DNA of 64,000 bases from positions 787,449 to 851,448 of the forward strand of contig CAVSCD010000011.1 of assembly GCA_963726335.1 (NCBI GenBank), given 5' to 3'. Shown here piece by piece: positions 31,731-53,906 of the stretch. The number at the start of each line of letters is the position of its first letter. Position 1 is the first letter of the stretch. The notes beneath the pieces are model-generated. The model was not told the origin of the DNA. It worked only from the letters and a program-made list of their open reading frames with translations, and did not search any database. The position numbers and the translations under genes are program-made. The stretch is from Candidatus Aminicenantes bacterium (GTDB lineage Bacteria; Acidobacteriota; Aminicenantia; Aminicenantales; UBA8522).

Positions 31731-31739
31731 GGGCACACC

Positions 31740-33923: not shown

Positions 33924-33958
33924 GGGCGGCTGGTCGAAGGGCCGGCCGCCCTCTTTTT
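33924..33958 (+). terminator. Rho-independent terminator after first pilin gene
   Basis: GGGCGGC...GCCGCCC stem followed by TCTTTTT. Confidence 0.5.
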
Positions 33959-33997
33959 ACCCTGAGAGATCGAATCCTCGATGAATCGGGAGTTGCC

Positions 33998-34546: not shown

Positions 34547-34619
34547 TCTTTCCGCTTTGCATCCCGGCACCAGCGACGCTATAATGGGCAGCCGGTGAAC
34601 CCAGGCGGCGGTATGATCC

Positions 34620-36398: not shown

Positions 36399-36406
36399 CC
36401 GCCCTT

Positions 36407-38604: not shown

Positions 38605-39345
38605 GTGAGGACCATCTTCCTCGGCCTCGTCTATCTCGTCCTCCTCCTCTTCCTTTCCGTCGCTCTCCTCATTTGCTGGCCGCTCGGCGTGCGCGACCCG
38701 CTCCTGGCGATCGCCAAGTGGGCCATGGACCTGGGACTGAAGATCCTGGGGATCCGGGTCGGGGTCTCGGGACGCGAGGCGATCGATAAGGGATCGCGGT
38801 ACGTTTTCATGGCCAACCATCTCAGCTTTATCGACGGACCGATGCTCTTCCGCTTCATTCCCCAGTCCGTGCGCGTCATTCTCAAGAAGTCGATCTTCCG
38901 GATCCCCGTCCTCGGCCAGGGAATGAGATTCGTGGGATTTGTCCCGGTGGACAGGAAGGGGGTCCGGGGCGGCCGGCAGAGCATCGATGTCGCCGCGCGC
39001 CTGATGCGGGAGCGCGGCTACTCTTACCTGATCTTTCCCGAGGGGACGAGGAGCCGCGACGGGCGGCCCCAGGCTTTTCGCCGGGGCGGGTTCTTCCTGG
39101 CCATCGAGGCCGGCGCCCCGATCGTTCCGGTCAGCATCGCCGGGACCTTCGAGCTCATGCCCAAGGGATCGATGTTCGCCCGGTCAGGCCCGGTTTGCGT
39201 GCGGTTCCACCCGCCCATTTCATCCCAGGGCTTTGGGCCGGCGAATATGGGCGAGCTCATGGACACGGTGAAGGCCGCGATCGAGTCGGGGCTGGCCGAG
39301 CCGGAGCGTCCGGCGGCTAATCTTCGCCCAACACGATCTTCTTGA
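38605..39345 (+). CDS. plsC: 1-acyl-sn-glycerol-3-phosphate acyltransferase
   Basis: 246 aa; acyltransferase motifs ANHLSFIDGPML (HX4D-like) and FPEGTRS. Confidence 0.85.
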   Translation: MRTIFLGLVYLVLLLFLSVALLICWPLGVRDPLLAIAKWAMDLGLKILGIRVGVSGREAIDKGSRYVFMANHLSFIDGPMLFRFIPQSVRVILKKSIFRIPVLGQGMRFVGFVPVDRKGVRGGRQSIDVAARLMRERGYSYLIFPEGTRSRDGRPQAFRRGGFFLAIEAGAPIVPVSIAGTFELMPKGSMFARSGPVCVRFHPPISSQGFGPANMGELMDTVKAAIESGLAEPERPAANLRPTRSS

Positions 39346-41659
39346 TCTCGGCCGCGCCCGCCGCCCCGCTGTTGAAGAGATAACAGGCCGTCGAGTCGAG
39401 CAGCCGGCCGAAGAAACCCTTCTGAAGCTCCAGCCGGTCTTCGCTCGCGAACAGCAAATGGGGATTGTAATACGGCTGGGGTTTGGCGGGGCTGAGGCTC
39501 TTCCTGGCGCCCGCCGCTTCGCCCGCCTCGAGGATCCGAAGGGCCTCGTCCTTCTTCAGCCGCACCGCGGCCGGAGAGATCGCATCGTTCCTCAGGATGA
39601 ATAGCCAGGCGAGCTCGGTCCGCTTGACGTGGCCCGCCTTGCCGCCGATCCACGCCGGGTCGAGCATGGCGTGAGCGCCCTTGGAAGCGCGGTAGCAGTA
39701 GGGAGAACCCCTGTCCAGGCGGCAGTCATCGAGCCTCAGGCAGCCGGCGTCCTGGCAGTCTTCTTTGTGGATGATAATATTTTCGCACCGGCTGGCGTCG
39801 AAGAGCGGAGCCAGCTGCGGGAACGACTCGACGGTGTTGGTCGGAAGATAAAGCTTCCGCTCGACGCATTCGGCCAGTGCCCGTCCCCCGCCGAACCGCA
39901 CCAGGACGATGTCGTTGCTCTGGAGCCGGAACCGGCGGTCGCCGAGGAGCTCGAAGAACAGTTCGGTCTTGTTTGTTCCGGCGGGCCCGACGAGCACCAG
40001 GCCTTTGCCGCCCGCGTCCGCCGACATGCCCCGGATGCCGTGAACGCCGAACAGGCGCTCTCCCGCGTCGAGGACCAGGCCGAGCGCCAGGCTCCGGAGC
40101 GGGCCGTAGTTATCGGCGTTGACGATGACGCCGGTCTTCGTCTCCGAGTTGTAGAAGGCGCGGGGCTCCCGCCCGGGGATCCCGTCCACGGCGAAGATGA
40201 TGCCGTGCGGCTCCAGGTCGGCTTCGAGCTGCGCCGGATACCAGTTCTCCACCCAGAAGTCGTAGAGATGGGGGACGTTCGTCCGGAGCTGGACGATGAC
40301 GCCGGAGATGTTGGCGTTCCACTCGTAATAGTTTTCGTGGCTGAGGTGGCTTTCCATCTCGGCGACGAGCGCGTCTCTCAGCTTGACGGTGGTCGAGGAA
40401 TCCACCGGCACCTGTTTTTTGACCCGGGTGACGGCGTTCTGCAGCGCGACCCGCTTCACGCTCTTGGGTGTCTTCAGCCGGGAGACGGCCTCGATGATCC
40501 GGTCCATCCCTTTTTCCAGGTTGGCCATCGAGGTCGCGGTCGACAGCCGGATGTGGGCGTCGGCCCCGAAGGAGTCACCCGGGACGATGGCCACCCGGGC
40601 CTCCTTCAGGAGGTAGTAGGCCATGCCGTAGGAGTTCCGGATCAGTGTGCCGTTGGCTTCCTTATCGTAGTATTGCGAGACGTTGGGGAAGAGGTAGAAC
40701 GCGCCCTGGGGTTTGAAACAGGAGATGTTGGGGATGGCGCTCAGGCGCATATGGCAGTAATTGCGGCGGCGCTGGAACTCGGAGATCATCCGGGAGATCT
40801 CGTGCTGCGGGCCGCTCAGGGCTTCCAGGCTCGCCTGCTGCGAGATCGAGCAGGCGTTCGAGGTTGAGTGGCTCTGGATCTTGCTCATCCCGTTGATCAC
40901 CTCCGCGGGCCCGAGGGCGTAGCCGATCCGCCAGCCTGTCATAGAGTAGGATTTGGAGACGCCGTTAATCAGAATGGTTTTCTTTTTGATCTCCTCGCCC
41001 AGGGAGGCGAAGCTGACGTACGGGAAATCGTCGTAGATGAGCTTGCCGTAGATCTCGTCGGCGATGACGTAGATGTCCTCGCCGCGGATCACCTCGGCCA
41101 GGGCCTCGAGCTGGGACTTGTTGTAGGCCGCGCCCGTCGGGTTGGACGGATTGTTGAGAATGAGGGCCTTGGTGGCGGGGTTGATCGCGGCTTTCAAGTC
41201 GTCGGGAGAGAGGAGAAAACCGTTCTCCTCCTTGGTGGGGATGAACACGGGTTTACCGCCGGAGATGGCCACCGCCTGTGGATAGGTGACCCAATACGGG
41301 GCGGGGATGATCACCTCCTCGCCTTCGTTGACCAGCGCCTGGATGAGGTTGAAGAGCGAGTTCTTGGCGCCGCTCGAGACGATGACCTGGTTGGGCTCGT
41401 AGCTGAGCCCGTAGTCCTCCTTCATCCGGGCGATGATGGCCTTCTTCAGGGCGGGGATCCCCTCGTTCTCCGTGTACTTCGTGAAGTTCTGCTGGATGGC
41501 GCGGATACCCGCCGCCTTGATGTTTTCCGGTGTGGGGAAGTCGGGCTCGCCCACGCTCAAGTCGACGATGTCGATCCCATCGGCCTTCATGGCCCTGGCC
41601 TTGGCCGAGATCTTGAGCGTCGGCGAGGCGCCGATCTGGTTGACTTTTTCTGAGATCAT
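39317..41659 (-). CDS. Fusion protein: class I/II aspartate-family aminotransferase (N-terminal about 395 aa) + HprK/PEP-carboxykinase-like P-loop domain (C-terminal about 380 aa)
   Basis: N-terminus is a complete fold-type I aminotransferase (SKSYSMTGWRIGY PLP-lysine region); C-terminus has the HprK/PEPCK-like pattern GVHGIRGMSADAGGKGLVLVGPAGTNKTELFFELLGDRRFRLQSNDIV; single uninterrupted 780-aa ORF. Confidence 0.6.
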   Translation of the reverse strand: MISEKVNQIGASPTLKISAKARAMKADGIDIVDLSVGEPDFPTPENIKAAGIRAIQQNFTKYTENEGIPALKKAIIARMKEDYGLSYEPNQVIVSSGAKNSLFNLIQALVNEGEEVIIPAPYWVTYPQAVAISGGKPVFIPTKEENGFLLSPDDLKAAINPATKALILNNPSNPTGAAYNKSQLEALAEVIRGEDIYVIADEIYGKLIYDDFPYVSFASLGEEIKKKTILINGVSKSYSMTGWRIGYALGPAEVINGMSKIQSHSTSNACSISQQASLEALSGPQHEISRMISEFQRRRNYCHMRLSAIPNISCFKPQGAFYLFPNVSQYYDKEANGTLIRNSYGMAYYLLKEARVAIVPGDSFGADAHIRLSTATSMANLEKGMDRIIEAVSRLKTPKSVKRVALQNAVTRVKKQVPVDSSTTVKLRDALVAEMESHLSHENYYEWNANISGVIVQLRTNVPHLYDFWVENWYPAQLEADLEPHGIIFAVDGIPGREPRAFYNSETKTGVIVNADNYGPLRSLALGLVLDAGERLFGVHGIRGMSADAGGKGLVLVGPAGTNKTELFFELLGDRRFRLQSNDIVLVRFGGGRALAECVERKLYLPTNTVESFPQLAPLFDASRCENIIIHKEDCQDAGCLRLDDCRLDRGSPYCYRASKGAHAMLDPAWIGGKAGHVKRTELAWLFILRNDAISPAAVRLKKDEALRILEAGEAAGARKSLSPAKPQPYYNPHLLFASEDRLELQKGFFGRLLDSTACYLFNSGAAGAAEIKKIVLGED

Positions 41660-41683: not shown

Positions 41684-43096
41684 TCAGCCTTCCTTTTTCT
41701 CTTCAGGCGAGAACTTGGCCTGGAGGTACTTCTTGATGTCGATCCCGGTCAGGGATTGGACGACGTCCGGCATCTGGGCCAGCACCTCGGCGACCTGGGC
41801 GGTGATCTTCGTCGTGCCCAGGCTCTTGTCGCCGCCGCCGATGACGACGATCTTATCGACCTTGGAGAGCGGCTCGGAAACGGCCTTGGCCAGTTCGGGG
41901 AGTGTTTTGAGGTACATCTCGAGGACTGCGGCCTGGTTGTATTTTTCCCAAGCCTGGGCTTTCTTCAGCATCGCTTCGGCCTCGGCGAACCCCTTTTTCT
42001 TCATGATCTCGGCTTCGACTTCGCCCTCGACCCTGAGAGCCTCGGCCTTGCCCTTGGCCTCGGCCTGGATGCGGAACTCCTCGGCCTCGGCTTCGGACTT
42101 GATCTGGTACTTGCGGGCGTCGGCCGGCTTGATGACGGACGACTCGAGCTCCTTCTCGCGCCGGGCGATCTCGAGCTCCTCGAGCTTGATGGCCTCGCTC
42201 TTCTCGATGGCCTTCATCGTCGCTTCTTCTTTCTTGATCTGCTGGCTCAGGCGGTAGCGCTCGAGCTCGTAGGAGAAATCGGCCTGGGCCTTTCTCTGAT
42301 TGACCATGACCTGGGATTCGGCCTTCTTGGCCTCGTTTTCCCACTGCGCCTTGGCGATCAAGGCGTCAGCGGCCAGACGGGCGACCTCTCCCTCCTTCCG
42401 CGCTTGGGAGGACTTGACGATGGATTCCTTCTCGGTCTCGGCCTCGGCGATCGAGGCGTCCCGCTTGGCGGCGGCGATCTGGGGCTTGCTCAACGAATCG
42501 AGGAATCCCTGGGCGTCGCTGATATCCTTGAGGGCGAACGAGAGCATGACCAGTCCCATGCGCGACAGGTCCGGCTTGACGGCCTCCGACACCCTGGCCG
42601 AGAATTCCTGGCGGCCGCGGTAGATCTGTTCGACCGTCATCGTTCCCATGACCTCTCTCGTGTGGCCTTCGAGGACGTTCAGGGCGACGTCCCGGATGCC
42701 GTCCTTGCCCACGCCGAGGAATTGCTCGGCGGCCAGGCGGATAGCGAGATCCGAGGAATCGACCTTGACCTGAGCGGTGGCCTCGGCCATGATCGGCACG
42801 CCGCTGTGGGTGAGGACTTCAGGGGTCTTGATGTTCAGGCTGATGACGTCCATCGGCAGGCGGTAGACTGTCTCGGCGAACGGCAGGACGAACGTGCCCC
42901 CGCCCAGCCGGTACCGGTACCCGACCTTGACCTTGGTGCCGTCGGGGCTGACGACCGTCCTCTTCCTGCCGCCGGCGATGATCAGGACCTCGTTGGGGCC
43001 GACCTTTCGGTACTGCTTGGCGAAGACGAATAGAATGAGAGCGATGACGGCGACGATGACGCCGACGAGGATCAGCGTGGAAGTAGGTATCATCAT
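41684..43096 (-). CDS. Flotillin-like SPFH/band-7 protein
   Basis: 470 aa; N-terminal TM anchor, SPFH domain, long E/A/K-rich coiled-coil flotillin region. Confidence 0.85.
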   Translation of the reverse strand: MMIPTSTLILVGVIVAVIALILFVFAKQYRKVGPNEVLIIAGGRKRTVVSPDGTKVKVGYRYRLGGGTFVLPFAETVYRLPMDVISLNIKTPEVLTHSGVPIMAEATAQVKVDSSDLAIRLAAEQFLGVGKDGIRDVALNVLEGHTREVMGTMTVEQIYRGRQEFSARVSEAVKPDLSRMGLVMLSFALKDISDAQGFLDSLSKPQIAAAKRDASIAEAETEKESIVKSSQARKEGEVARLAADALIAKAQWENEAKKAESQVMVNQRKAQADFSYELERYRLSQQIKKEEATMKAIEKSEAIKLEELEIARREKELESSVIKPADARKYQIKSEAEAEEFRIQAEAKGKAEALRVEGEVEAEIMKKKGFAEAEAMLKKAQAWEKYNQAAVLEMYLKTLPELAKAVSEPLSKVDKIVVIGGGDKSLGTTKITAQVAEVLAQMPDVVQSLTGIDIKKYLQAKFSPEEKKEG

Positions 43097-43473
43097 ATCC
43101 TCCTGTGCATCAGCCCCGGACAGAGCGGGGCGAGGCCCGCGGATGGGCGGCCGCGTTCAACCTGAATTTAGGAGAATATTAGCTTTAAGGACTGGTCAAG
43201 TCAAGGCTTCCGCCGTCGTCGGAAGCCGCCTTTCATGAACGGGCCGATTTCTCTCCGGTGAGAACCAGGGAGGCCTTTTGAGGGGGTCATGGTCAGCGCG
43301 GCTTCTCACCCCCGGCGATGAGAAGGTTTAGCAAAACTCACCCCGGCGTTCATCGAGCCCGACGATTGACCGGCGGCCGGGAATGAATGACAATACGGCT
43401 GAAATGGAGAGCCCGCGTTTCAGTGAACGCTGTAAAATGGCCGGCCCCGAGGGATCGACACAAGGAGTCAGGG

Positions 43474-44465
43474 ATGGGGAATAAGACCTTGCTGTCAGTC
43501 GTCGTGCCCATCTGCTCCGAAGAGGAGATCATCCCTGAATTCTATGCGCGGCTGAAGTCCGTGCTCTCGGGACTGAGCCAGGCTCTCGATCATGAGATCA
43601 TCTTCGTCGATGACGGGAGCCGTGACGGATCCATGGACCTCCTCAAGCGCCTAGCGCAAGACGACAAGGATATCCGGGTCATCAGCTTCTCAAGGAACTT
43701 CGGTCACCAGTTCGCCATCACCGCCGGCCTGGACCATGCCTCCGGCGACGCCGCTGTGATCATCGACGGCGACCTCCAGGACCCGCCCGAGGTCATCCCC
43801 CAAATGATCGGCAAATGGAGCGAAGGCTGCAAGGTCGTTTACGGGGTCAGGGAAAAAAGGCGGGGCGAAAACCCGGTCAAGCTCGTGACGGCCAAGCTGT
43901 TCTACAGGCTCATCAGGCTCCTGAGCGACACCGATCTGCCGCTCGACGCAGGGGATTTCAGGCTCCTGGATGCCAAGGTCATCGAGGCTCTTAAAAGATT
44001 CGGGAGGAAAACCGCTACATCAGGGGGCTCGTGAGCTGGGCGGGCTTCCGCCATTGCGGCCTGCCTTACCGGCGGGATCCCCGGTATGCCGGAAAGACGA
44101 AATATACCTTCAAAAAAATGGTCAAGTTCGCCGTCGACGGGATCCTGAGCTTTTCCGACCGCCCGCTCAAGATCACCGCTTATCTTGGGTTCCTGATCAC
44201 GATGGTCTCGTTCTTGGTCGGGCTGAGGATTGCCATCGGCAAGCTCCTCCATCCGGACATGCTCGTCTCCGGCTGGACCTCCATGATCCTGGCCGTGCTG
44301 TTTATCGGCGGCATCCAGCTCGTCTCGCTCGGCATCCTGGGCCTTTATGTCGGCCGCCAATACCGGGAAGTGAAGAGGCGGCCACTCTATATCATCGCCG
44401 AAAAGACGGGTTTTGACGTGGGCCGGCCGCCGGGCAGCCTGGGAGAAGGGCTTGACAGCCGATGA
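43474..44465 (+). pseudogene. GT2 polyprenyl-phosphate sugar synthase (GtrB/ArnC/DPM1-like), interrupted by a -1 frameshift
   Basis: ATG 43474 with SD AAGGAG; N-terminal GT2 domain (LSVVVPICSEEEI...FVDDGSRDGS...DGDLQDPPE) to stop at 44034; continues in another frame (EENRYIRGLVSWAGF..., two C-terminal TM helices) from about 44003 (GGG run). Confidence 0.6.
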
Positions 44466-45305
44466 CCGGATCCGAAGGCCCCCTGATTTCCGTCGGCATT
44501 CCCGCTTTTAATGGCGAGCGCTATATCGGCCGGGCCATCGAATCCGTCTTAGGCCAATCCCACGCCCATTTTGAGCTCGTCATCGTCGACGACCATTCCG
44601 AGCGACAATACGGCCGGCGTTATCAAGGGTTACCCCGACCCGAGGATCAGGGTCATGGAAAATCCGTCACGTTTGGGCCAGATGGGAAACTGGAACAAAA
44701 CCCTTCATGAAGCCAGGGGGACGTACATAAAGCTCCTCCCCCAGGACGACCTCCTCTATCCGACCTGCCTGGAAAGGCAGGTCGAAGCTTTCGCCAAGCC
44801 GGAGAACCAGGGCGTCGCTCTGGTCTGCTGTGCGCGCGACATCATCGACCACTCCGGGCGGGTCATCCTCAGGCGGTCTTTCCGGAGGAGGAAAGGCCGG
44901 CTGGCAGGAGTCAGGGCCGTAAAGGAGAGCATCCGGGCGGGGACTAACCTAATCGGTGAACCGGCCGGGGTCCTCTTCAGGTCCGCGGCCGTCGACAAGG
45001 TCGGCCTCTTTGACGACCGGAATTTCTATGTCATCGACCTGGATTATTGGTGCCGGGCGCTTCTGACCGGCGACCTCTACATCATACCCGAACCGCTGTG
45101 CGCCTTCCGGGTGTCCGGAGGCTCCGCGAGCCTCAGGGTCGCGTCCTCGCAGGACAAGGATTTTCGAAACTTCATCAGGTTCCTGGCCCGGGACGAGCGC
45201 TTTCACCTCACGGGCGTGGATGGCTTCCGGGGCAAGATCAAGGCCTTCGCCAATCGACGGCTCCGGCAGCTCTTCTACAAGATGATCGTGAAGGAAGCGC
45301 GATGA
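44462..45305 (+). pseudogene. GT2 family glycosyltransferase, interrupted by a +1 frameshift
   Basis: ISVGIPAFNGERYIGRAIESVLGQSHAHFELVIVDDHS in frame 2, continuing DNTAGVIKGYPDPRIRVMENPSRLGQMGNWNK... in frame 0 from about 44600. Confidence 0.55.
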
Positions 45306-46747
45306 GCGAGAGGTTCGAGCGGCCGGAGGATATCGCCTTTGTGATCAGCCCCTCGACCTGGTACAAGAGCATGTATCCGACCGGGATCTTATGCTTAGCC
45401 AATTATCTGGAGGCGAAAGGCTTCCGGAACGTCATCCTGGATGCGGGCCTGTCTCCGAAGAGGCTTTGCCAAGCCGAGAGGGAAGCGCTCATCTTGAGCG
45501 CCCTTCGGTCGATCAAGCCGAAGGTAGTCTGTCTGTCCAGCACGCATAAGGAATTCGAGGAGATCATCAGGCTCAGCATGGGGACGCGGGCCTTCGATGA
45601 GCAGGCCGCCGTCATCGTCGGCGGTTCCCAGGCGACGTATCGCCCGACGGACTTCCTGGATAACGGCGTGGACTTTGTTTGCGTGGGAGAGGGAGAAAGG
45701 ACCCTCCATGAATTCGTCGTCCAAACCGCGGCCGGAACCCGCCGCTGGCATGAGGTGGCCGGGCTGGCCTGGAAGAACGGCGGCCGGATCACGGTGAACT
45801 CGCCCAGGGAACTCATGACCGAGGAGGAGCTTCAGACCGACGATTTTTCCGCCTACGAGAAGATCGATAAGAGATATTTTGCCGTCAACGTAGAGACCAT
45901 CAGGGGACTGCCGCTGTCCGGAGCGCTGCTTCTGACCACCAGGGGGTGTCCGTTCGATTGCTCCTTCTGCGGCTGCGGTTCGATCTTCGGCCGCCGGCTG
46001 AGGTTTCGGCCGCTCGACAGTATCAGACGGGAGGTCTCCCATCTCCAGACCGAACACGGCGTCGAGGGGATCTGGATCGTCGACGATACTTTTACGGTCA
46101 ACAGGAAGCACGCGTTGGCCGTCGCCGGGATCCTTAAAGAGCACGGCATCCTGTGGGGCTGCCAATCCAGAGTCGACACGATCGATGAGTCCCTGGCGGC
46201 GGCGCTCAAAGACTGCGGCTGCATCCAGATGGATTTCGGGGTGGAGTCGGGAAGCCAGCGGATCCTCAACGAGATCATCAACAAACGGACGACGACCCAG
46301 CAGGTCAAGGACGCCTTTGCGCTGATGAAAAAATACAGGATCCGGTCCCTGGCCAATTTCATGATCGGGTTGCCCACGGAGACCGAGCAGGATCTCCTCG
46401 CTACGAAGGAGCTCGCCGAGGCCATCGATGCCGACGTCTACGTGTTCTCCATCGCGACCCCACTGCCCGGCACCCGGCTCTACGAGATGGTCGGAGAAGA
46501 GATCTCGCCCTTCGAGTATTCTCTCCTGGACTGGAACGGAAGCGCCCTGACCGAGAGGCTCAACAAGTCCGGGATCAAAGACGTCGTCGGAGAGCGGCGG
46601 GAACTCAAGAACAAGTACTTGGTGAAATCGATCTTCAAGTCGGCCTTCTCCACGAGGAGCCTCGGTTTCGTCCTGATGAGGAAGGGCCGCCTGAAGAGGT
46701 TGAAGGCGGTCTTGGATTTCTTCCGACGGACCCTGGGGAACGGGTGA
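45302..46747 (+). CDS. B12-binding domain radical SAM protein (class B radical SAM family)
   Basis: N-terminal cobalamin-binding-like domain, radical SAM CxxxCxxC (RGCPFDCSFCGCGS); start ATG overlaps upstream stop (ATGA). Confidence 0.8.
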   Translation: MSERFERPEDIAFVISPSTWYKSMYPTGILCLANYLEAKGFRNVILDAGLSPKRLCQAEREALILSALRSIKPKVVCLSSTHKEFEEIIRLSMGTRAFDEQAAVIVGGSQATYRPTDFLDNGVDFVCVGEGERTLHEFVVQTAAGTRRWHEVAGLAWKNGGRITVNSPRELMTEEELQTDDFSAYEKIDKRYFAVNVETIRGLPLSGALLLTTRGCPFDCSFCGCGSIFGRRLRFRPLDSIRREVSHLQTEHGVEGIWIVDDTFTVNRKHALAVAGILKEHGILWGCQSRVDTIDESLAAALKDCGCIQMDFGVESGSQRILNEIINKRTTTQQVKDAFALMKKYRIRSLANFMIGLPTETEQDLLATKELAEAIDADVYVFSIATPLPGTRLYEMVGEEISPFEYSLLDWNGSALTERLNKSGIKDVVGERRELKNKYLVKSIFKSAFSTRSLGFVLMRKGRLKRLKAVLDFFRRTLGNG

Positions 46748-46784
46748 CCGTCTTTGGCCCCGGGATCGGAAGGAGAAGAGAGTG

Positions 46785-47450
46785 ATGTCCCCTGTGCCCG
46801 CAGAGCCGCCAACGTATGACGAAAAATACTATCACGACCTTTACATCAAACCCGCCTTCACGCGCCTCGGCCTGAGCAAGCTGTACTATCTTTGGATCGC
46901 CTTTTTCTGTATCAAGCGGGCGGCTGGCCTGAAGCGGGGGGCGCGCGTCCTTGATTTCGGTTGCGGGATAGGCAACCTGGTCTGGGCCTTGAGGAAGATC
47001 GGATTGGAGGCTTATGGGATTGAACCCTCGGAGCCGGCCCGGCGGTACAGCCGCGCTCCGCGGCATTGCCGTTATGAAGACTCCCGCCGGCTGCCTTTTG
47101 AAAACAGGTCCTTTGATCTCGTTTACAGCCACGAGGTCTTGGAGCATTTATCACCCGGCGATTTGCGGCCCGCCCTCCACGAGATCTCGCGGGTCAGCCG
47201 AGGGAGGACCCTCCACATGATCTGCGTCAAGGAGCGGGGGGCATTCGTCAGCCAGGAACCGACGCATCTGATTATTGAGTCCGAGTCATGGTGGAAAGGG
47301 CTGTTTGAAAACCAGGGCTACAAGGTCAGGACGGGGAATCCTGTGTATTTTTTCCCTTTCATTCCCTACTTGTTCGCTCGGACGCTGAATGTCCTCGCCA
47401 TCGGGAAGGGCTATTTCCTGCTGGACGAGCGCCGTGGCGGGAAGCTCTAG
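46785..47450 (+). CDS. Class I SAM-dependent methyltransferase
   Basis: VLDFGCGIGNL glycine-rich SAM-binding motif, Methyltransf_11-like; SD GGAAGGAG upstream. Confidence 0.75.
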   Translation: MSPVPAEPPTYDEKYYHDLYIKPAFTRLGLSKLYYLWIAFFCIKRAAGLKRGARVLDFGCGIGNLVWALRKIGLEAYGIEPSEPARRYSRAPRHCRYEDSRRLPFENRSFDLVYSHEVLEHLSPGDLRPALHEISRVSRGRTLHMICVKERGAFVSQEPTHLIIESESWWKGLFENQGYKVRTGNPVYFFPFIPYLFARTLNVLAIGKGYFLLDERRGGKL

Positions 47451-49204
47451 AGCGGGGTCAGCTCGAAGTAGGGAGCCTGCGCGGAATTGCGCAGCCGGAA
47501 GAATTGACGGTCTGGAAATCGTTCCCGCAGTTTCTGTTCGACATCGGGAATGTCGTGCAGGATCAAGATCTTGTCGGTCAAGTCCGGCCTGGCCCGGCGC
47601 CACTCGAATACCCAGCTCCCGATCGACCTGAAATACCCGTTGGCCAGCCAGAGGGACCCGAACTGAGGGGCCAGAATCACGGCTTTGTCCACTTTTCTCT
47701 CGAGGATGCTGTTATCGATGAAGCCGTAAATGTAGCTTTGGATCGAAGCCTGACGGTTGAGGGCCCGGGATTGCCAGAGATTGAAGACCCCGAGACCGAG
47801 AGCCAGGGTGCAGACGAGAACGCTGGCCGGTACCAGGAAGGAGATGTTCCCTTTTTTTAGCCAGTTCTTTATCCGGAACAGGCCGAAGACGGAGATGATG
47901 ATCAGGGGGGCCAGGCACTCGGAATAGTGGATCGGGCCGACGGCGTGAAGTCCCTGGTTATCATGGAATAGCCCCATGCTGAGGACCGCTCCGACGCCCA
48001 AACCAAGGAGCTTGGTGAACTTGTCTGTCAGGAGCCCGGAGACGATCAATAGGATGCCTAAAGGCCCCAGGAACCAGATCGCGAGCATGAACAGGTTATA
48101 GCTTGAATTAGCGCCGAACCTGTTCCACAGCGATCCCGTCGCCAGCGTCTTGGCGGGGCCTTCAGCGGAGAAGCGGGGCGGGAACAATGGATCTCCGGTG
48201 ATAAGAAAATTGTAGAGGAAGAAAAGCGCGACGGGAATCAGGCATCCGGCGAGAAGTCCGAAAACGGGCTTGACCGACCGGCCTGTCTTCGAAAACGCTC
48301 GCCAGACGGCATGCGCCGCGAGCGGCAGCAAGAGGAAGCCGGTCTCAATAGGCCGGACGCAGAAGCTAACCCCGGCCGCCAGTCCGGTCAGGGCCCAGAG
48401 CCACCAGCTCTGTTTTTCCTCAGCGAGGAAATACAGAAGCAGTGTCATGCTGATCGTCGCCCTTGAGAGCAGGTGGGCGTGAGTTGTCGTCGAGAGCGTA
48501 AAGGCCATGGGGGAGAAGAGGGTGAGCGCGCCGGCGATCAGCCCATATCCGGGTGACAGCCGCCGGCCCAGGATGACCGCCAGGCAGAAAGCGGGAACGG
48601 CGGCGGCCAGGGCGAAAATCCACGGCCCCGTCCCGGTGAATTCGGCGATCGCCCAGGCCGCCAGCACGCCGGGCCAATCAAAGCTCGTAATCAAGCCGTC
48701 TTTGAAGTACAAAAAGAGCTTGGAAAAGGCCTCATAGGGTTGGGGGGCGGGCACGCCGAGCTTTCCCAGGGCCAGGACCTGGCCGCCGAATTGAGTCGCA
48801 TACTCGTCGTCGGTAAAGGGGAAGTCAAGCATGACCAGCGAATGGAGTATCCGGGCCAAGGCGGCGAGCAACACGAACCCGACAATCAGCGCCGCCGCCT
48901 TCTCGCCCCGGCTCAGGCTCTCGACCCGGCCCCATAGCTGCCTCAGACGGGGGCCCAGAACAGGGCTCAGCGCGTACCCGATCAGGCAGGCTCCCGGGAA
49001 CAGTAGAAGCGCGTGGGCCAGCCAGAAATAGGCTTCTCCCGGCGATGAATAGGTGAACGGTGGATGAAAGGTGACGCTGAGCCTGGTGGCCGTCTCGGCC
49101 AACCCAAAAAACGAAAGGAAAAGCAACGATCCGAACACCAAGGCGACGGACCGCTCCTTCCCGAGGCTGAAGAGAGAGAGCTCTCTTGCCTTGTTATTAT
49201 CCAT
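47447..49204 (-). CDS. GT-C fold membrane glycosyltransferase, ArnT/PMT-like (GT39/GT83-like)
   Basis: 585 aa, about 12 TM segments; loop-1 acidic motif FPFTDDEYATQF after TM1 as in ArnT/PMT. Confidence 0.7.
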   Translation of the reverse strand: MDNNKARELSLFSLGKERSVALVFGSLLFLSFFGLAETATRLSVTFHPPFTYSSPGEAYFWLAHALLLFPGACLIGYALSPVLGPRLRQLWGRVESLSRGEKAAALIVGFVLLAALARILHSLVMLDFPFTDDEYATQFGGQVLALGKLGVPAPQPYEAFSKLFLYFKDGLITSFDWPGVLAAWAIAEFTGTGPWIFALAAAVPAFCLAVILGRRLSPGYGLIAGALTLFSPMAFTLSTTTHAHLLSRATISMTLLLYFLAEEKQSWWLWALTGLAAGVSFCVRPIETGFLLLPLAAHAVWRAFSKTGRSVKPVFGLLAGCLIPVALFFLYNFLITGDPLFPPRFSAEGPAKTLATGSLWNRFGANSSYNLFMLAIWFLGPLGILLIVSGLLTDKFTKLLGLGVGAVLSMGLFHDNQGLHAVGPIHYSECLAPLIIISVFGLFRIKNWLKKGNISFLVPASVLVCTLALGLGVFNLWQSRALNRQASIQSYIYGFIDNSILERKVDKAVILAPQFGSLWLANGYFRSIGSWVFEWRRARPDLTDKILILHDIPDVEQKLRERFPDRQFFRLRNSAQAPYFELTPL

Positions 49205-49270
49205 GCCGCTTTATTTTAGGCTAAGCGCAATTCTTGTCAACAAAAATGGTCCTCGCACGAGACCGGCGGC

Positions 49271-49957
49271 CTAATCAAAAAACCTGAACCGCACGATGTG
49301 GAAAAGCGCGGCGACGCCGTCCTTCCAGCCGATCTTCTTGCCCTCCGAGTAATCGCGGCCCGCATAAGAAATCGGCACCTCATAGACCCGGGAGTTGAGC
49401 TTGGCGACCTTGAGCGTGATCTCGGGCTCGACCCCGAACCGCTTGGACTTAAGCCGGATCTTCTGGAGGACTTCCCGCCGGAAGACCTTGTAGCAGGTCT
49501 CCATGTCGGTCAGGTTCAGGTTGGACGCCATGTTGGAGAGCGTCGTCAGGAGGCGGTTGCCGACGGAATGCCAGAAATAGAGGACCCGGTGCGGGCCGCC
49601 CAGGAAGCGGCTTCCGTAGACGACGTCCGCCCGGCCCTCCAGGATGGGGGCCAGGAGCTTCGGGTACTCGCGCGGGTCATATTCCAGGTCGGCGTCCTGG
49701 ACGAGCACGATATCTCCGCCGGCCTCCGAAAACCCGGTCCGCAGGGCGCCGCCTTTTCCTGTATTCTTCTCATGGAGGACGACCCTGACATCTTCGGCGG
49801 ACAGCCGCCTGAGAATGTCGCGGGTGCCGTCGGTCGAACCGTCGTCGACCACCACGATCTCTTTCTCCAGGCCGACGTCCACCGCCTGGACGCGGCGGAT
49901 GATCTCCTCGACGGTGGACTTTTCGTTGTAAACCGGGATCACGACGGAGAGCTTCAT
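49271..49957 (-). CDS. GT2 polyprenyl-phosphate sugar synthase (DPM1/ArnC/RgtE-like, soluble-type)
   Basis: 228 aa; [19 protein letters not shown]...[11 protein letters not shown]...[14 protein letters not shown]2 motifs. Confidence 0.8.
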
Positions 49958-49981
49958 GAGCGCGGCGGCCCCTCTATCAGG

Positions 49982-50920
49982 CTATGCGGATTTCAGCTTA
50001 TCGCGAAAATAGGGGATGGTCTTCGTCAGCCCCTCCTCGAGCGCGACCCGGGGCTCCCAGCCCAGCTTCTCCCTGGCCAGGGAGATATCCGGGCAGCGTT
50101 TGACCGGGTCGTCGGAGGGCAGCGGCCGGTGCTCGATCCCGGAACGGCTGCCGGTGAGCCGCAGCACCTTCTCCGCCAGCTCGAGGACGGTGAACTCGCC
50201 CGGGTTCCCGATGTTGACGGGGCCGTGGAAATCCTCGACGTTCATCAGCCGGACCAGGCCGTCGATGAGGTCGGAGTAGAAACCGAAAGACCGCGTCTGG
50301 GTGCCGTCGCCGTAGACGGTCAGGCTTTCCCCGCGCAGCGCCTGGACGATGAAGTTGCTGACCACCCGGCCGTCGTCCACGGCCATCCGCGGCCCGTAGG
50401 TGTTGAAGATCCTGGCGATCCGGGTGTCGACACGGTTCTGCCGGTGGTAATCCCTCATCAGCGTCTCGGCGACGCGCTTCCCCTCGTCGTAGCAGCTCCG
50501 CACGCCGATGGGGTTCACGTTGCCCCAGTACGACTCGTTCTGGGGATGGACCTTGGCGTCGCCGTACACCTCGGATGACGACGTCAGGAGGATCCGGGCC
50601 TTGATGCGCTTGGCCAGCCCGAGCATGTTGATCGTGCCCATGACGCTGGTCTTGACGGTCTTGATGGGGTTCCGCTGGTAGTGGATCGGCGAGGCCGGGC
50701 AGGCCAGGTGGTAGATCTGGTCCACCTCGATGAACAGCGGGTGGATGACGTCGTGGCGGATCAGCTCGAAATAGGAGTGGTCGAGAAGGTGCCGGATGTT
50801 GTCCTTGCTTCCCGAGAAAAAATTGTCGATGCAGACGACGTCATTGCCTTGGCCCAGGAGGTACTCGGCGAGATGGCTGCCGAGAAACCCCGCCCCGCCC
50901 GTTATCAGGATCCTCTTCAC
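49982..50920 (-). CDS. UDP-glucuronate decarboxylase (UDP-xylose synthase, UXS) of the extended SDR family
   Basis: [44 protein letters not shown]; these motifs match UXS rather than GlcA 4-epimerase; GTG start overlaps rph stop (GTGA). Confidence 0.85.
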
Positions 50921-51672
50921 GGCTCGCTCCTCTCCCCGTAGGCCATGAACATCATGCTTTTTTTCTTGAGCACGGTCTTCTGCATCTGGATGAGCTCCTT
51001 GATCCCTTTGTCGGCGAGCTTCAGAAGGTCGCCCAGGTCCTTCCTGGAGAAGGGCTCCCGCTCCGCGGTCGCCTGGACCTCGACGAGCTGGCCGCCGTCG
51101 GTCTCGACCACGTTCATGTCGATCTCGGCCTGGGAATCCTCGGTGTATTCGAGGTCGAGGAGAAGCTCGCCGCGGACGACGCCGACGCTCGCGCCGGCGA
51201 CAAGATGCCGGAGCGGCATCTTGCGGATGATGCCGCGATCGAGAAGCTTCTTCAAGGCCAGCGCCAGGGCCACGCAGCCGACCGTCACCGAGGCCGTCCG
51301 CGTTCCGCCGTCGGCCTGGATCACGTCGCAGTCCACCATGATCGTGCGCTCCCCGAGCGCCTCCATATCGGTGACCGCCCTCAAGGAGCGGCCGATCAGC
51401 CGCTGGATCTCCTGGGTGCGCCCGGACATCCTTCCCTGGGTCCTTTCGCGCGCGCTCCTCTTTTCGGTGGCGCAGGGCAGCATGGCGTACTCGGCCGTGA
51501 TCCAGCCCGTGCCCCTGCCCTTGAGGAACGGCGGGGCCTTTTCGTCCACCGTGGCCGAGGCGGCGACCCGGGTCTTGCCGACCTCGATGAAGGCGGAGCC
51601 GTCGGCGTAATCAAAATAGTCCGTGTGGATCCGGACCGGCCTCAATTCGTCGATGGCGCGTTTTTCCCTCAT
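50917..51672 (-). CDS. rph: Ribonuclease PH
   Basis: 251 aa; RNase PH core ([16 protein letters not shown]...). Confidence 0.9.
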
Positions 51673-51683
51673 GAGCGTATACC

Positions 51684-52625
51684 TCAGGCTTTGTTTTGGC
51701 GTCCGGCCCCGGCTGAGCGCGGCGTGTCGGGCGGCCGGGTTTTCCAGCGGTTGTGGAACCAGAACCAGAGGCCCGGGTTTTGCCGGATTTCCGACTCGAT
51801 CATCTTAGTGCAATGCCGGGTGATTTTCAACACGTCCTCATCCAGGCTGCCGGAGAGCTCGACTTCGACGGGCGGGCCGATCCTGATTGTGTATGAGAAC
51901 GAGGGTGTCGGGTAGCAGAAGATCGGCAGCAGGGGCGAGCGGGCGCGCGCGTAAAACGACCCCACGGCGGGCGTCGTGGCCGCCGGCCGGCCGAAAAAGT
52001 CGACGAACACGGCCTGGCTGCGGAGGACGTTCTGGTCCATCAGGATGGCGACAGCTTCGTTATGGCGGAGGGCCTGGAGGACGGGCTTCGCGGCCTGGAA
52101 TTTCGAGATGACGCGTGCCCCCAGCGATTTCCTTAACCGGAGGAGCCACCGCTCGAGCACCCGGCTGTCCAGGGGCCTGGCGACGACGCTCAGCCGGGCG
52201 AAGCGCGAAACGGCGAGCGACGCGACCTCCCAATTGCCGAAATGAGCGGAGAAGAGGATGGCCCCCCGGCCTTTCTCGAGGGCCAAGCGAAGATGGTCAC
52301 CGCCCTCAAGGGACAAGAGCCGCAGCCTTTTGCGGTGGCCGAGATGTGTCCATTTAACGGTGTCGGCCATGACCCGGCCGAATGTTATAAATGATTCCCG
52401 GGCGATCCGTTGCCGTTCTCCGGGCGTGAGGTCCTTGCCGAGTGCTGTCTGGAGGTTGGCGAGGACGAGATCCCGGTGCCGCCTGTCGGCCCGGAAAAGG
52501 AACGCGCCCAACAGCCGGCCCAATCCCAGGCAGGCTTTCCTCGGCAGGACGAAGAACAGCGCTTGGATGGCGCCGAAAACGCAGAAGATCAGCAGGTCGA
52601 CGGTTTTCGACGTTCTTTTGGGCAT
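51684..52625 (-). CDS. lpxL: Lipid A biosynthesis late acyltransferase (LpxL/HtrB family)
   Basis: 313 aa; N-terminal TM, lysophospholipid acyltransferase core with FSAHFGNWE motif. Confidence 0.75.
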   Translation of the reverse strand: MPKRTSKTVDLLIFCVFGAIQALFFVLPRKACLGLGRLLGAFLFRADRRHRDLVLANLQTALGKDLTPGERQRIARESFITFGRVMADTVKWTHLGHRKRLRLLSLEGGDHLRLALEKGRGAILFSAHFGNWEVASLAVSRFARLSVVARPLDSRVLERWLLRLRKSLGARVISKFQAAKPVLQALRHNEAVAILMDQNVLRSQAVFVDFFGRPAATTPAVGSFYARARSPLLPIFCYPTPSFSYTIRIGPPVEVELSGSLDEDVLKITRHCTKMIESEIRQNPGLWFWFHNRWKTRPPDTPRSAGAGRQNKA

Positions 52626-53647: not shown

Positions 53648-53906
53648 CCCCCCTCCATTTTTCAATTTCGGGACAGGCCCCGGCCTGTGCCTAACGCGTG
53701 GAAACAAAGGGGGGGGGCATGGCGCCAGTCCCTGCGCGCCCGGAGCGACGGGGCCCCCTTTCCGCTGGGAGGGCGCTAACCATCGTTGATGGGTGAGGCG
53801 AGAGGACGCACGGCGACGCGCCATGACTGGACCCTCCTGACCTTGGCTTTACTTGACCCGGCCGTTTCCATATAATGACCCTGACTTTTCAACGAGGAGA
53901 AGGGCG

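What the first reader, a model, noticed from the sequence alone, without database searches (positions are those of the whole stretch)
43474..47450. Glycosylation-type gene block: GtrB-like Und-P-sugar synthase, GT2, B12-binding radical SAM enzyme and SAM methyltransferase; the first two are frameshifted
Translationally coupled by ATGA overlaps at 44462 and 45302. Contents: a GtrB/ArnC-like GT2 with C-terminal TM pair, a WcaA-like GT2, a class B (cobalamin) radical SAM enzyme and a small class I methyltransferase. Class B rSAM enzymes typically catalyse C-methylation of unactivated carbons, for example on sugars or lipids. Together with the flanking GT-C genes this looks like a pathway making a methylated polyprenyl-linked sugar. 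Both GT2 genes carry single-base indels (GGG run near 44003; near 44600). The rSAM and methyltransferase genes are intact.
Basis: partly seen in the sequence, partly recalled or inferred. Interest (0 to 1): 0.5.

Follow-up and report, generated by a model that had tools for sequence, protein, structure and literature searches.

The report
Envelope-sugar gene cassette; frameshifts probably artefacts
This is a five-gene cassette for decorating a cell-envelope molecule with a modified sugar, conserved and intact in relatives; the two "broken" genes most likely carry single-base errors of a long-read metagenome assembly rather than being real pseudogenes.

Summary
On the + strand lie a GtrB-type polyprenyl-phosphate glycosyltransferase (43474-44465), a soluble GT2 (44462-45305), an intact B12-binding radical SAM enzyme (45302-46747) and an intact class I methyltransferase (46785-47450). 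ATGA overlaps sit at 44462 and 45302. Each GT2 gene carries one single-base indel: a deletion at 43995/6 (not in the GGG run) and an insertion at 44598-44600.

Close Aminicenantes relatives carry the same block with both GT2 genes intact (330 and 279/280 aa). The block includes the convergent GT-C gene (47447-49204) and moves as one five-gene unit. GtrB-like GT2, second GT2, rSAM, methyltransferase and a large polytopic membrane protein also co-occur in Riflebacteria, Oligoflexia and Bdellovibrio.

The pseudogene reading is probably wrong. The window holds at least three more single-base frameshifts in unrelated genes. Related Nanopore MAG assemblies break the same genes at other positions. 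dN/dS downstream of both indels (0.05-0.11) is no higher than for the intact rSAM (0.10-0.16).

Best reading: a GtrB/GT-C "three-component"-type envelope glycosylation cassette with an uncharacterised B12-rSAM and methyltransferase tailoring step. Sugar, acceptor and rSAM chemistry remain inferred.

The parts
43366..43394 (+). Weak sigma-70-like promoter match (TTGACC-17-GACAAT, 9/12) in the 377-nt gap between the flotillin gene and the first cassette gene. An AAGGAG ribosome-binding site lies at 43461-43466.
   Evidence: sequence. This is a consensus match only.
43474..44465 (+). GtrB-type polyprenyl-phosphate glycosyltransferase: a GT-A domain, a juxtamembrane region and two C-terminal TM helices. 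It is read in two frames because one base is missing at 43995/43996 (frame 1 for 43474-43995, frame 0 for 43998-44465). The repaired product is 330 aa.
   Evidence: Pfam/NCBIfam. 295 bits over the full length to Synechocystis GtrB 5EKP. The equivalents of GtrB D94/D96/R122/D157/R200 are conserved as D98/D100/R126/D161/R204. TM helices. Indel placed. Intact 330-aa orthologues.
44462..45305 (+). Soluble family-2 glycosyltransferase ('GT2b', WcaA/TuaG-like N-terminal GT-A domain, no TM helix). One extra base lies at 44598-44600 (frame 2 for 44462-44599, frame 0 for 44601-45305). The repaired product is 280 aa. The start overlaps the GtrB stop (ATGA).
   Evidence: Intact orthologues of 279-280 aa at 93%, 78% and 71% identity. 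PDB hits cover only the GT-A N-terminal domain.
45302..46747 (+). Intact B12-binding (class B) radical SAM enzyme of 481 aa, with CxxxCxxC at C216/C220/C223. It belongs to an uncharacterised family. The start overlaps the GT2b stop (ATGA).
   Evidence: (every NCBIfam hit is far below its cut-off). AlphaFold model with pLDDT 90.6. Closest solved folds are MgmA, TsrM, AprD4, CysS, TokK and OxsB at 15-21% identity.
46785..47450 (+). Intact class I SAM-dependent methyltransferase (221 aa from ATG 46785; GTG 46782 is an alternative start). Its stop overlaps the stop of the convergent GT-C gene by 4 nt.
47447..49204 (-). Polytopic membrane protein of 585 aa with about 9 hydrophobic segments, PMT_2/GT-C-type. 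It is the presumed periplasmic transferase of the cassette and travels with the four + strand genes.
   Evidence: PMT_2 31.8 bits against a cut-off of 26.1. LA_3751/2 family putative glycosyltransferase, 54 bits. TM segments. Synteny and relocation as a unit. No sequence match to any solved structure.
49213..49264 (-). Terminator-like hairpin (49264-49248) after the upstream GT2 gene, followed by a near-consensus promoter-like site (TTGACA-16-TAAAAT, 11/12; 49240-49213) in front of the GT-C gene. This marks the right-hand boundary of the cassette.
   Evidence: consensus matches. The boundary agrees with L006, where the flotillin gene directly abuts this GT2 gene and the cassette lies elsewhere.
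49271..50920 (-). Neighbours that are probably NOT part of the cassette: a DPM1/AglJ-like polyprenyl-phosphate GT2 without a TM helix (49271-49957, 228 aa) and a UDP-glucuronate decarboxylase/UDP-xylose synthase (49982-50920, 312 aa). RNase PH, LpxL-like and LpxK genes follow on the same strand.
   Evidence: UXS scores 431 bits to human UXS1. In L006 this pair stays with the flotillin gene while the cassette is about 6 kb away.

Best explanation
The region is a five-gene accessory cassette of an Aminicenantes-type bacterium, for extracytoplasmic glycosylation of an envelope molecule. It follows the GtrB/GT-C 'three-component' logic with an extra cytoplasmic tailoring stage.

Proposed steps:
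1. The GtrB-type enzyme loads a hexose, probably glucose from UDP-Glc, onto polyprenyl phosphate at the inner face of the membrane. Family membership and catalytic residues are shown; donor and product are inferred.
2. The soluble GT2, the B12-binding radical SAM enzyme and the class I methyltransferase modify this lipid-linked sugar or its nucleotide precursor. The modification is most likely a second sugar plus C- and/or O-methylation. This step is inferred from conserved co-occurrence only.
3. After flipping, the 585-aa GT-C protein transfers the product to a periplasmic acceptor such as LPS/lipid A, a protein or a pilin. The acceptor is unknown.

The two single-base frameshifts are most likely consensus errors of a long-read (Nanopore) metagenome assembly. 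In the organism both GT2 genes are probably intact.
For: Family assignments:
- GtrB scores 295 bits over its full length to the solved Synechocystis GtrB. The DXD motif, the catalytic Asp and both Arg residues are conserved, and two C-terminal TM helices are present.
- The rSAM has a B12-binding domain, a Radical_SAM domain and CxxxCxxC. A confident model is closest to class B rSAM structures.

One functional unit:
- ATGA overlaps couple the first three genes.
- A syntenic JGI contig carries flotillin, GtrB (330 aa), GT2 (280), rSAM (481), MT (221), GT-C (585, minus strand), GT2 (228, minus strand), UXS and RNase PH, all intact.
- In L006 the five genes GtrB to GT-C sit on the other side of the acyltransferase-aminotransferase-flotillin block, so they move together.
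- The cassette has GC3 of 0.74-0.82, against 0.87-0.92 in the flanking genes.
- The GT-C gene has its own promoter-like and terminator-like boundary.

Cross-phylum recurrence:
- Oligoflexia carries an operon of GtrB-like GT2, a 773-aa polytopic membrane protein, MT, rSAM and GT2b.
- Riflebacteria and Bdellovibrio have GtrB, GT2b and rSAM with methyltransferases.
- Among 72 neighbours of rSAM orthologues in 11 loci of other phyla, 12 are GT2 and 12 are class I methyltransferases. GT-C families Glyco_transf_22 and YfhO also appear.
- A paralogous rSAM is fused to a class I methyltransferase (P0117).

Frameshifts as artefacts:
- Five confirmed 1-nt frameshifts lie in 64 kb, in unrelated genes: PilS-like 30575, PilR-like 32679, GtrB 43995/6, GT2b about 44599, and an ABC ATPase about 63061.
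- A probable further run of frame switches lies at 55.5-56.4 kb.
- Sister assemblies with Flye-style contig names break the same genes at other sites. L048 has four extra bases in GT2b. L006 has the GT-C gene in three pieces and has split PilS and PilR genes; the PilR break lies at a different residue from the window's.
- L006/L007 is a Microflora Danica MAG. That project used Nanopore-only Flye assembly with one round of Medaka polishing.
- The JGI contig of the closest relative has every gene intact.
- dN/dS downstream of the indels is 0.05-0.11, against 0.10-0.16 for the intact rSAM.
Against: - No reads were available, so the indels could be real.
- Two of the five confirmed indels fall within 600 nt, in adjacent genes of an accessory cassette. 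Under a uniform error rate this clustering is somewhat unexpected (roughly P about 0.01, post hoc).
- None of the indels lies in a long homopolymer, which is the classic Nanopore error context.
- That the window's own 1.24-Mb contig is a Nanopore assembly is inferred, not shown.
- No GtrA-type flippase is present in the window, although one is adjacent in L002.
- The GT-C assignment rests on a Pfam hit just above threshold and on topology, with no match to solved structures.
- Nothing identifies the sugar, the acceptor or the rSAM reaction. The nearest solved folds include non-methylating enzymes (AprD4, OxsB).
- Many GtrB+GT2b pairs in the databases appear to lack the rSAM. This rests only on matching contig lengths across. 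If true, rSAM and MT are an optional add-on.
Confidence: 0.6

Rival explanations
1. The frameshifts are real. This strain has recently inactivated the first two genes of the cassette, so it no longer makes the glycan, while the rSAM, methyltransferase and GT-C genes are still intact.
For: Two disabling indels lie 600 nt apart in adjacent genes of an accessory, lower-GC3 cassette. Neither the fragments nor an intact version of these proteins is on record for this genome, whereas the intact neighbours are; this is consistent with pseudogene annotation in the deposited record. Surface-glycan genes are common targets of phase variation or loss.
Against: At least three further 1-nt frameshifts hit unrelated genes in the same 64 kb. 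Sister long-read assemblies carry frameshifts at different sites of the same genes. There are no secondary lesions, and dN/dS downstream is 0.05-0.11. Neither indel sits in a repeat tract of the kind used for phase variation.
Confidence: 0.2
2. The rSAM and methyltransferase do not modify a sugar. They act on a lipid instead, for example the polyprenyl carrier or a membrane lipid, and the glycosyltransferases then build a glycolipid.
For: Among the NCBIfam partial hits are lipid-directed B12-rSAM families: HpnJ 132 bits, the ladderane-lipid rSAM 104 bits and HpnR 92 bits, all far below their cut-offs. Acyltransferase genes lie near the cassette in the window, L002 and L006.
Against: Orthologues with more than 50% identity occur in Patescibacteria, Omnitrophota and Methanobacteriaceae, in loci dominated by GT2, methyltransferase and nucleotide-sugar enzymes (DegT, dehydratases) rather than lipid genes. 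The acyltransferase does not move with the cassette.
Confidence: 0.12
3. The rSAM catalyses a non-methylating radical reaction on the sugar, such as diol dehydration/deoxygenation (as in AprD4) or a ring rearrangement (as in OxsB or HpnJ). The class I methyltransferase supplies the only methyl group.
For: The best PDB sequence hit is AprD4, a 1,2-diol dehydratase acting on an aminoglycoside sugar (87.5 bits). AprD4 and OxsB are among the top structural matches.
Against: Most solved relatives, including the top structural hit MgmA (TM 0.75 normalised to the target), are methyltransferases. The B12-binding domain scores well above the Pfam threshold (61 bits against 32). AprD4 works with a dedicated reductase, and no reductase gene is conserved in the cassette.
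Confidence: 0.15
4. The two frame changes are programmed (ribosomal frameshifting or transcriptional slippage), or the split products function as separate subunits.
For: None beyond the presence of the frame changes.
Against: There is no slippery heptamer or long homopolymer at either site. One site needs a -1 shift and the other a +1 shift. All orthologues read straight through in one frame. The N-terminal GtrB fragment would lack the Arg equivalent to R200, the second juxtamembrane helix and both TM helices.
Confidence: 0.01

Closest known systems
GtrA/GtrB/GtrX three-component glucosylation systems (O-antigen and teichoic-acid side-chain glucosylation). The solved representative is GtrB of Synechocystis, sll0501, PDB 5EKP (PMC4728340).
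   Same: The first gene is a full-length GtrB homologue (295 bits) with conserved catalytic residues and a two-helix membrane anchor. It is paired with a polytopic GT-C-type membrane protein. A GtrA gene sits next to the cassette in the orthologous contig L002.
   Different: The cassette adds a soluble GT2, a B12-binding radical SAM enzyme and a class I methyltransferase, none of which belongs to described Gtr systems. No GtrA gene is present in this window. The host is an uncultured Aminicenantes-type bacterium, and the acceptor is unknown.
ArnC/ArnT (with ArnA/ArnD): lipid A modification with L-Ara4N through an undecaprenyl-phosphate-linked sugar that is tailored on the carrier (PMC12690121).
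   Same: It pairs a polyprenyl-phosphate GT2 (ArnC scores 154 bits to the GtrB-like protein) with a GT-C transferase. It sets a precedent for enzymatic tailoring of the sugar while it is lipid-linked. LpxK, an LpxL-like gene and a UDP-GlcA decarboxylase lie within 5 kb.
   Different: The protein is much closer to GtrB than to ArnC. There is no ArnB aminotransferase, formyltransferase or ArnD deformylase. The decarboxylase and DPM1-like GT2 pair does not travel with the cassette.
Streptococcus mutans Pgf protein O-glycosylation machinery (PgfS, PgfM1, PgfE, PgfM2).
   Same: PgfS is the best NCBIfam model for both halves of the GtrB-like protein (150 + 124 bits). Pgf also combines a GtrB-like synthase with GT-C membrane proteins.
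   Different: The scores are far below the equivalog cut-off of 500. There is no PgfE-type epimerase in the cassette, the cell envelope is diderm, and rSAM and methyltransferase are absent from Pgf.
Class B (cobalamin-dependent) radical SAM enzymes with solved structures: MgmA/QCMT (9CCB), TsrM, TokK, CysS, OxsB, and the related sugar diol-dehydratase AprD4 (review PMC12931638).
   Same: It has the same architecture of an N-terminal Rossmann-type B12 domain plus a radical SAM barrel with CxxxCxxC. Foldseek E-values are 1e-24 to 1e-16 with TM scores of 0.6-0.75.
   Different: Identity is only 15-21%. No curated NCBIfam model reaches even a third of its cut-off. The known substrates are peptides, antibiotics, nucleosides and cofactors. 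The 2026 review contains none of the words polysaccharide, glycan, sugar, lipid or polyprenyl.

Membership tests
GtrB-type polyisoprenyl-phosphate glycosyltransferase (PI-GT, GT2) | N-terminal GT-A fold GT2 domain with a DXD metal/nucleotide motif | tested here: met
   Glycos_transf_2 at 2e-30. D98-G-D100 aligns with D94/D96 of GtrB Synechocystis.
GtrB-type polyisoprenyl-phosphate glycosyltransferase (PI-GT, GT2) | Catalytic Asp (D157) and the Arg residues R122 and R200 of GtrB Synechocystis | tested here: met
   D161, R126 and R204 align with them in the repaired protein. R204 lies downstream of the frameshift.
GtrB-type polyisoprenyl-phosphate glycosyltransferase (PI-GT, GT2) | Juxtamembrane region followed by two C-terminal transmembrane helices | tested here: met
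   Hydrophobic helices at residues 238-256 and 271-289. The alignment to 5EKP runs through residue 315.
GtrB-type polyisoprenyl-phosphate glycosyltransferase (PI-GT, GT2) | Transfers glucose from UDP-Glc to undecaprenyl phosphate | not testable with these tools
   Needs an enzyme assay. Donor specificity cannot be read from the sequence.
Three-component extracytoplasmic glycosylation system (synthase + flippase + GT-C) | Polyprenyl-phosphate sugar synthase encoded together with a GT-C fold transferase | tested here: met
   The GtrB-like gene and the PMT_2-type 585-aa membrane protein are syntenic and relocate together. The GT-C call itself is weak (31.8 bits against a cut-off of 26.1) and has no PDB sequence match.
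Three-component extracytoplasmic glycosylation system (synthase + flippase + GT-C) | GtrA-family small flippase | tested here: not met
   tblastn of the L002 GtrA protein against the window gives no hit better than E = 0.55. GtrA is present next to the cassette in L002, so a flippase may be encoded elsewhere in this genome.
Class B (cobalamin-dependent) radical SAM enzyme | Radical SAM core with a CxxxCxxC cluster motif | tested here: met
   Radical_SAM at 3e-29. C216, C220 and C223 are invariant in 21 homologues.
Class B (cobalamin-dependent) radical SAM enzyme | N-terminal B12-binding Rossmann-type domain | tested here: met
   PF02310 at 61 bits against a cut-off of 32. The model (pLDDT 90.6) superposes on MgmA, TsrM and TokK.
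Class B (cobalamin-dependent) radical SAM enzyme | Cobalamin actually bound, and methyl transfer to an unactivated carbon | not testable with these tools
   AprD4 has the same fold but is not a methylase. Biochemistry is required.
Class I SAM-dependent methyltransferase | Rossmann-fold SAM-binding domain with a glycine-rich motif | tested here: met
   Methyltransf_11, _23 and _25 at 1e-13 to 1e-14. The motif LDFGCGIGN is in the translation.
Pseudogene (genuine gene decay) | Disabling mutation present in the organism's DNA, supported by reads | not testable with these tools
   No reads are available. An independent Logan contig of run ERR10755939 covers only 45039-49345 and misses both sites.
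Pseudogene (genuine gene decay) | Relaxed selection or secondary lesions downstream of the first disabling mutation | tested here: not met
   There is one indel per gene and no further stops. dN/dS downstream is 0.05-0.11, equal to or below the upstream parts and the intact rSAM. This test cannot exclude very recent inactivation.

The most novel reading that the evidence does not exclude
A cobalamin-dependent radical SAM enzyme, working with a class I methyltransferase and a second GT2, tailors a polyprenyl-phosphate-linked sugar before a GT-C enzyme attaches it to the envelope. The modification could be C-methylation or another radical rearrangement. This would be the first B12-rSAM step in a Gtr/Arn-type three-component glycosylation pathway. 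The cassette would be horizontally mobile and shared by Aminicenantes, Riflebacteria and Bdellovibrionota, with the rSAM family also found in glycan loci of Omnitrophota, Fibrobacterota, Patescibacteria and methanogens.
Probability: 0.3. Interest if true: 0.6.

Novelty: new variant of a known kind. Interest (0 to 1): 0.33.

Why it matters
The practical lesson is a caution. The "pseudogenes" here are most likely residual indels of a long-read MAG, and they should not be counted as gene loss.

Biologically, the cassette points to an uncharacterised B12-radical-SAM family. More than 100 database clusters match it at E < 1e-140, in several phyla. The family is repeatedly embedded in envelope-glycan loci next to GT2 and class I methyltransferase genes. 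If it modifies a lipid-linked sugar, it would extend B12-radical-SAM chemistry to cell-surface glycans. It would also predict unusual (for example C-methylated) sugars on the envelopes of uncultured anaerobes. That would be of moderate interest to glycobiologists and radical-SAM enzymologists, but nothing here goes beyond genomic context.

Tried and rejected
- **Read-independent check of the indels.** I looked for an intact or identically broken copy in other assemblies. The repaired GtrB and GT2b proteins have no 100% match; the best hits are 85% and 93%. Exact look-ups of the fragments 43474-44034 and 44031-44465 and of the flotillin ORF found nothing. The only independent contig of the same population (Logan ERR10755939, 99.93% identical, no gaps) starts at 45039 and misses both sites.
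- **Programmed frameshifting.** Considered and rejected: no slippery sites, opposite shift directions, and orthologues read in one frame.
- **In-frame stops in the microcompartment (BMC) region** (21598 and 24139). Checked as possible further lesions. They are ordinary adjacent genes.
- **Other overlapping ORF pairs.** TatA/TatC, deaminase/kinase and YtxH/DUF948 were checked. They are separate genes, not frameshifts.
- **Literature.** Four searches combined radical SAM or B12 with GtrB, GT-C, polyprenyl, undecaprenyl, polysaccharide or LPS. I also made a term search inside the 2026 review of B12-rSAM enzymes. None turned up a described B12-rSAM in a polyprenyl-phosphate glycosylation system. 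The library is incomplete, so this is absence of evidence.
- **Other negative checks.** PDB sequence searches for the GT-C protein found nothing. A search for GtrA in the window found nothing. The Rfam scan found only two tRNAs and no cobalamin riboswitch.

Full report
**1. What is in the sequence**

Between the flotillin gene (41684-43096, minus strand) and a convergent membrane-protein gene, the + strand carries four tightly packed genes.

- **GtrB-like gene.** It starts at ATG 43474, behind an AAGGAG ribosome-binding site. It matches Glycos_transf_2 (2e-30) and the N-terminal half of the PgfS and ArnC models. The 144-aa ORF 44031-44465, in another frame, matches the C-terminal third of the same two models. 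It contains two hydrophobic helices.
- **Second GT2 ('GT2b').** It is split between 44462-44710 (Glycos_transf_2 profile positions 1-38) and 44571-45305 (positions 38-144).
- **rSAM.** 45302-46747 is an intact 481-aa protein with B12-binding and Radical_SAM domains.
- **Methyltransferase.** 46785-47450 is an intact class I methyltransferase.

**2. Exact position of the two frameshifts**

I ran tblastn with the intact orthologues of contig L002, and made a DNA alignment with L048, L002 and L006.

- The GtrB-like gene lacks one base between AAA (43993-95) and AGATT. The orthologues have a whole codon there (GAG or GCC). The following ATT-CGG-GAG-GAA-AAC aligns without a gap. The lesion is therefore at 43995/6, not in the GGG run at 44001-03.
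- The second GT2 has one extra base in CAT-TCC-G-AGC, at 44598-44600.
- Repairing one base in each gene gives products of 330 and 280 aa, matching the orthologues' 330 and 279/280 aa.

**3. Family identities**

- The repaired first protein aligns over residues 6-315 with the solved Synechocystis GtrB (295 bits). ArnC scores 154 bits. The residues that the GtrB structure paper singles out (D94, D96, R122, D157, R200; PMC4728340) are conserved as D98, D100, R126, D161 and R204. The frameshift at residue 175 would cut off R204, the second juxtamembrane helix and both TM helices. The gene as written would therefore be non-functional.
- The second GT2 resembles solved structures only in its N-terminal GT-A domain.
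- The rSAM has C216-x3-C220-x2-C223 invariant in 21 homologues.
  - No curated NCBIfam model comes near its cut-off; the best is BchE at 142 bits against 481.
  - Its best PDB sequence hits are AprD4 and MgmA.
  - A confident AlphaFold model (pLDDT 90.6) is closest to MgmA, TsrM, AprD4, CysS, TokK and OxsB at 15-21% identity.
  - It is therefore a class B rSAM of an uncharacterised family. Methylation is the commonest chemistry among its relatives but not the only one.
- The convergent 585-aa protein passes the PMT_2 threshold narrowly and has about nine hydrophobic segments. It has no sequence match to any solved structure.

**4. The genes form one unit that is intact elsewhere**

- A 12.7-kb JGI contig carries the same order as the window, with every gene intact. 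Its GT2b is 93% identical to the window's, its GtrB is 85% identical, and its rSAM falls in the same 90% cluster. The order is flotillin, GtrB (330 aa), GT2 (280), rSAM (481), MT (221), GT-C (585, minus strand), GT2 (228, minus strand), epimerase/decarboxylase (312, minus strand) and RNase PH.
- Contigs L002 and L006/L007 (Candidatus Aminicenantes MAG MFD04408.bin.2.57) also have intact 330- and 279-aa genes.
- In L006 the five genes GtrB to GT-C lie on the other side of the acyltransferase-aminotransferase-flotillin block. There the flotillin gene directly abuts the 228-aa GT2 and the decarboxylase. The five genes therefore move as a cassette, and the DPM1-like GT2/UXS pair is not part of it.
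- The cassette boundaries agree with two other observations.
  - A terminator-like hairpin and an 11/12 promoter-like site lie between the 228-aa GT2 gene and the GT-C gene.
  - GC3 is lower in the cassette (0.74-0.82) than in the flanks (0.87-0.92).

**5. Recurrence outside Aminicenantes**

- rSAM orthologues with 50-62% identity occur in Riflebacteria, Omnitrophota, Oligoflexia, Bdellovibrio, Fibrobacterota, Kiritimatiellia, Paceibacterota and Methanobacteriaceae.
- Oligoflexia has an operon of GtrB-like GT2, a 773-aa polytopic membrane protein, MT, rSAM and GT2b.
- Riflebacteria and Bdellovibrio have GtrB, GT2b and rSAM with methyltransferases.
- Of 72 proteins encoded within 6 kb of the rSAM in 11 such loci, 12 are GT2 and 12 are class I methyltransferases. 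GT-C families (Glyco_transf_22, YfhO) and nucleotide-sugar enzymes also appear.
- A paralogue with 37% identity is fused to a class I methyltransferase domain.
- The association of rSAM, methyltransferase, GT2 and a large membrane transferase is thus robust.
- GtrB+GT2b pairs seem more widespread than the rSAM. This rests on matching contig lengths and was not verified further.

**6. Are the frameshifts biological?**

A codon-usage frame scan of the whole window, followed by domain searches, found three more single-base frameshifts in unrelated genes.

- A FepC/BtuD-like ABC ATPase near 63061/2. The ABC_tran profile is split 2-80 and 83-136 between two frames.
- A PilR-like sigma-54 response regulator at 32679, with an extra C in CTG-C-AGA that splits PPLRKRTEDI.
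- A PilS-like kinase at 30575.
- In addition, a stretch at 55.5-56.4 kb alternates frames three times. It encodes prenyltransferase-like repeats, with only weak Pfam support.

This gives at least five indels in 64 kb.

Sister assemblies with Flye-type contig names show lesions at other positions of the same genes.

- L048 has four extra bases in GT2b and truncated MT and GT-C genes.
- L006 has the GT-C gene in three pieces and has split PilS and PilR genes. The PilR break lies at a different residue from the window's.
- A 175-kb ENA contig has a 333-aa GT-C.
- L006/L007 belongs to the Microflora Danica MAG set. [quoted passage not shown]

Two further observations point the same way. The JGI contig of the closest relative is intact throughout. 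dN/dS downstream of the lesions (GtrB 0.05-0.11; GT2b 0.09-0.10) is no higher than upstream or in the intact rSAM (0.10-0.16).

Together this makes assembly error the most likely explanation. I could not prove it. No independent contig covers the sites, and the provenance of the window's own 1.24-Mb contig is inferred. The closeness of the two indels, and the absence of long homopolymers at any of the five sites, leave perhaps a one-in-five chance that they are real.

**7. Mechanism**

- *Shown:* a bona fide GtrB-type polyprenyl-phosphate glycosyltransferase, a class B rSAM, a class I methyltransferase, a soluble GT2 and a GT-C-type membrane protein form one mobile, conserved cassette.
- *Inferred:* GtrB makes polyprenyl-P-hexose. 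The three soluble enzymes extend and tailor it on the cytoplasmic face. A flippase moves it across; none is encoded in the window, but a GtrA gene is adjacent in L002. The GT-C then transfers it to a periplasmic acceptor.
- *Candidate acceptors by context only:*
  - LPS/lipid A: LpxK, an LpxL-like gene, UDP-xylose synthase and a DPM1-like GT2 lie within 5 kb.
  - Type IV pilins: in L006 the cassette lies about 4.6 kb downstream of the pilin genes.
  - In the window, a different GT-C pair directly follows the pilin genes.

**8. Comparison with known systems, and novelty**

The cassette works like the Gtr, Arn and Pgf three-component systems, and its first enzyme is a member of the GtrB family. 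It differs from all of them in its conserved rSAM, methyltransferase and second GT2 stage. Four literature searches and the 2026 review of B12-rSAM enzymes gave no example of such an enzyme in a polyprenyl-phosphate glycosylation pathway. I therefore file it as a new variant of a known kind, supported by genomic context only. The pseudogene aspect I regard as a probable artefact. Overall interest is modest.

Noticed in passing
window 30437-33138 (+): The PilS-like sensor kinase and the PilR-like sigma-54 response regulator each carry a single-base insertion. The PilS one is at 30575. The PilR one is at 32679, an extra C in CTG-C-AGA that splits the PPLRKRTEDI motif. The orthologous genes in L006 are also split; the PilR break is at a different residue from the window's.
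   Followed up: yes
window 62627-63482 (-): The FepC/BtuD-like ABC ATPase of a FecCD/Peripla_BP_2 uptake system (60724-63482) is frameshifted near 63061/2 by an extra G in ATTG-G-ACG. The long ORF 61713-63482 is a false fusion of the ATPase N-terminus and the binding-protein gene. No cobalamin riboswitch was found by Rfam.
   Followed up: partly
window 55529-56423 (+): Coding signal alternates between two frames three times. The fragments contain QxxDGG(F/W)-type repeats, with a weak hit to SQHop_cyclase_N (E = 9e-4). This is probably a prenyltransferase or terpene-cyclase-repeat gene with several more indels.
   Followed up: partly
window 17789-26170 (-): A bacterial microcompartment locus: class II aldolase, four BMC shell genes, aldehyde dehydrogenase, acetate kinase, phosphate propanoyltransferase (PTAC) and an RnfC/Nuo51-like iron-sulfur flavoprotein. 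This looks like the sugar-phosphate/aldehyde-type BMC of Planctomycetes and Verrucomicrobia.
   Followed up: no
window 33360-38461: Two type IV pilin genes are followed directly by a PMT_2/GT-C gene with a TPR-like C-terminus (34620-36398, +) and its paralogue (36407-38461, -; no Pfam hit, 86 bits to the former).
   Followed up: partly
window 39317-41659 (-): A class I/II aminotransferase (residues 30-388) is fused to a 381-aa C-terminal region with no Pfam, NCBIfam or PDB match. The 780/781-aa fusion is conserved in L006 and, cut at the contig end, in the JGI contig, so it is not an indel artefact.
   Followed up: partly
window 49271-53824 (-): Co-directional genes: LpxK, an LpxL-like acyltransferase, RNase PH, UDP-glucuronate decarboxylase (431 bits to human UXS1) and a TM-less DPM1/AglJ-like polyprenyl-phosphate GT2. 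This suggests a separate polyprenyl-P-pentose (xylose?) route, possibly for lipid A or LPS modification.
   Followed up: partly
L002 347-1000 and 7991-8330: The orthologous contig L002 carries two paralogous copies of the cassette methyltransferase (about 86% nucleotide identity over 254 nt). One lies next to the GT-C gene and one after the rSAM. It also has a GtrA gene next to GtrB.
   Followed up: partly
window 17518-17697 (-): tRNA-Arg(TCT) and tRNA-Pro(TGG) lie at the edge of a lower-GC stretch (15.3-17.1 kb, a TPR protein with GC3 0.66) next to the BMC locus.
   Followed up: no
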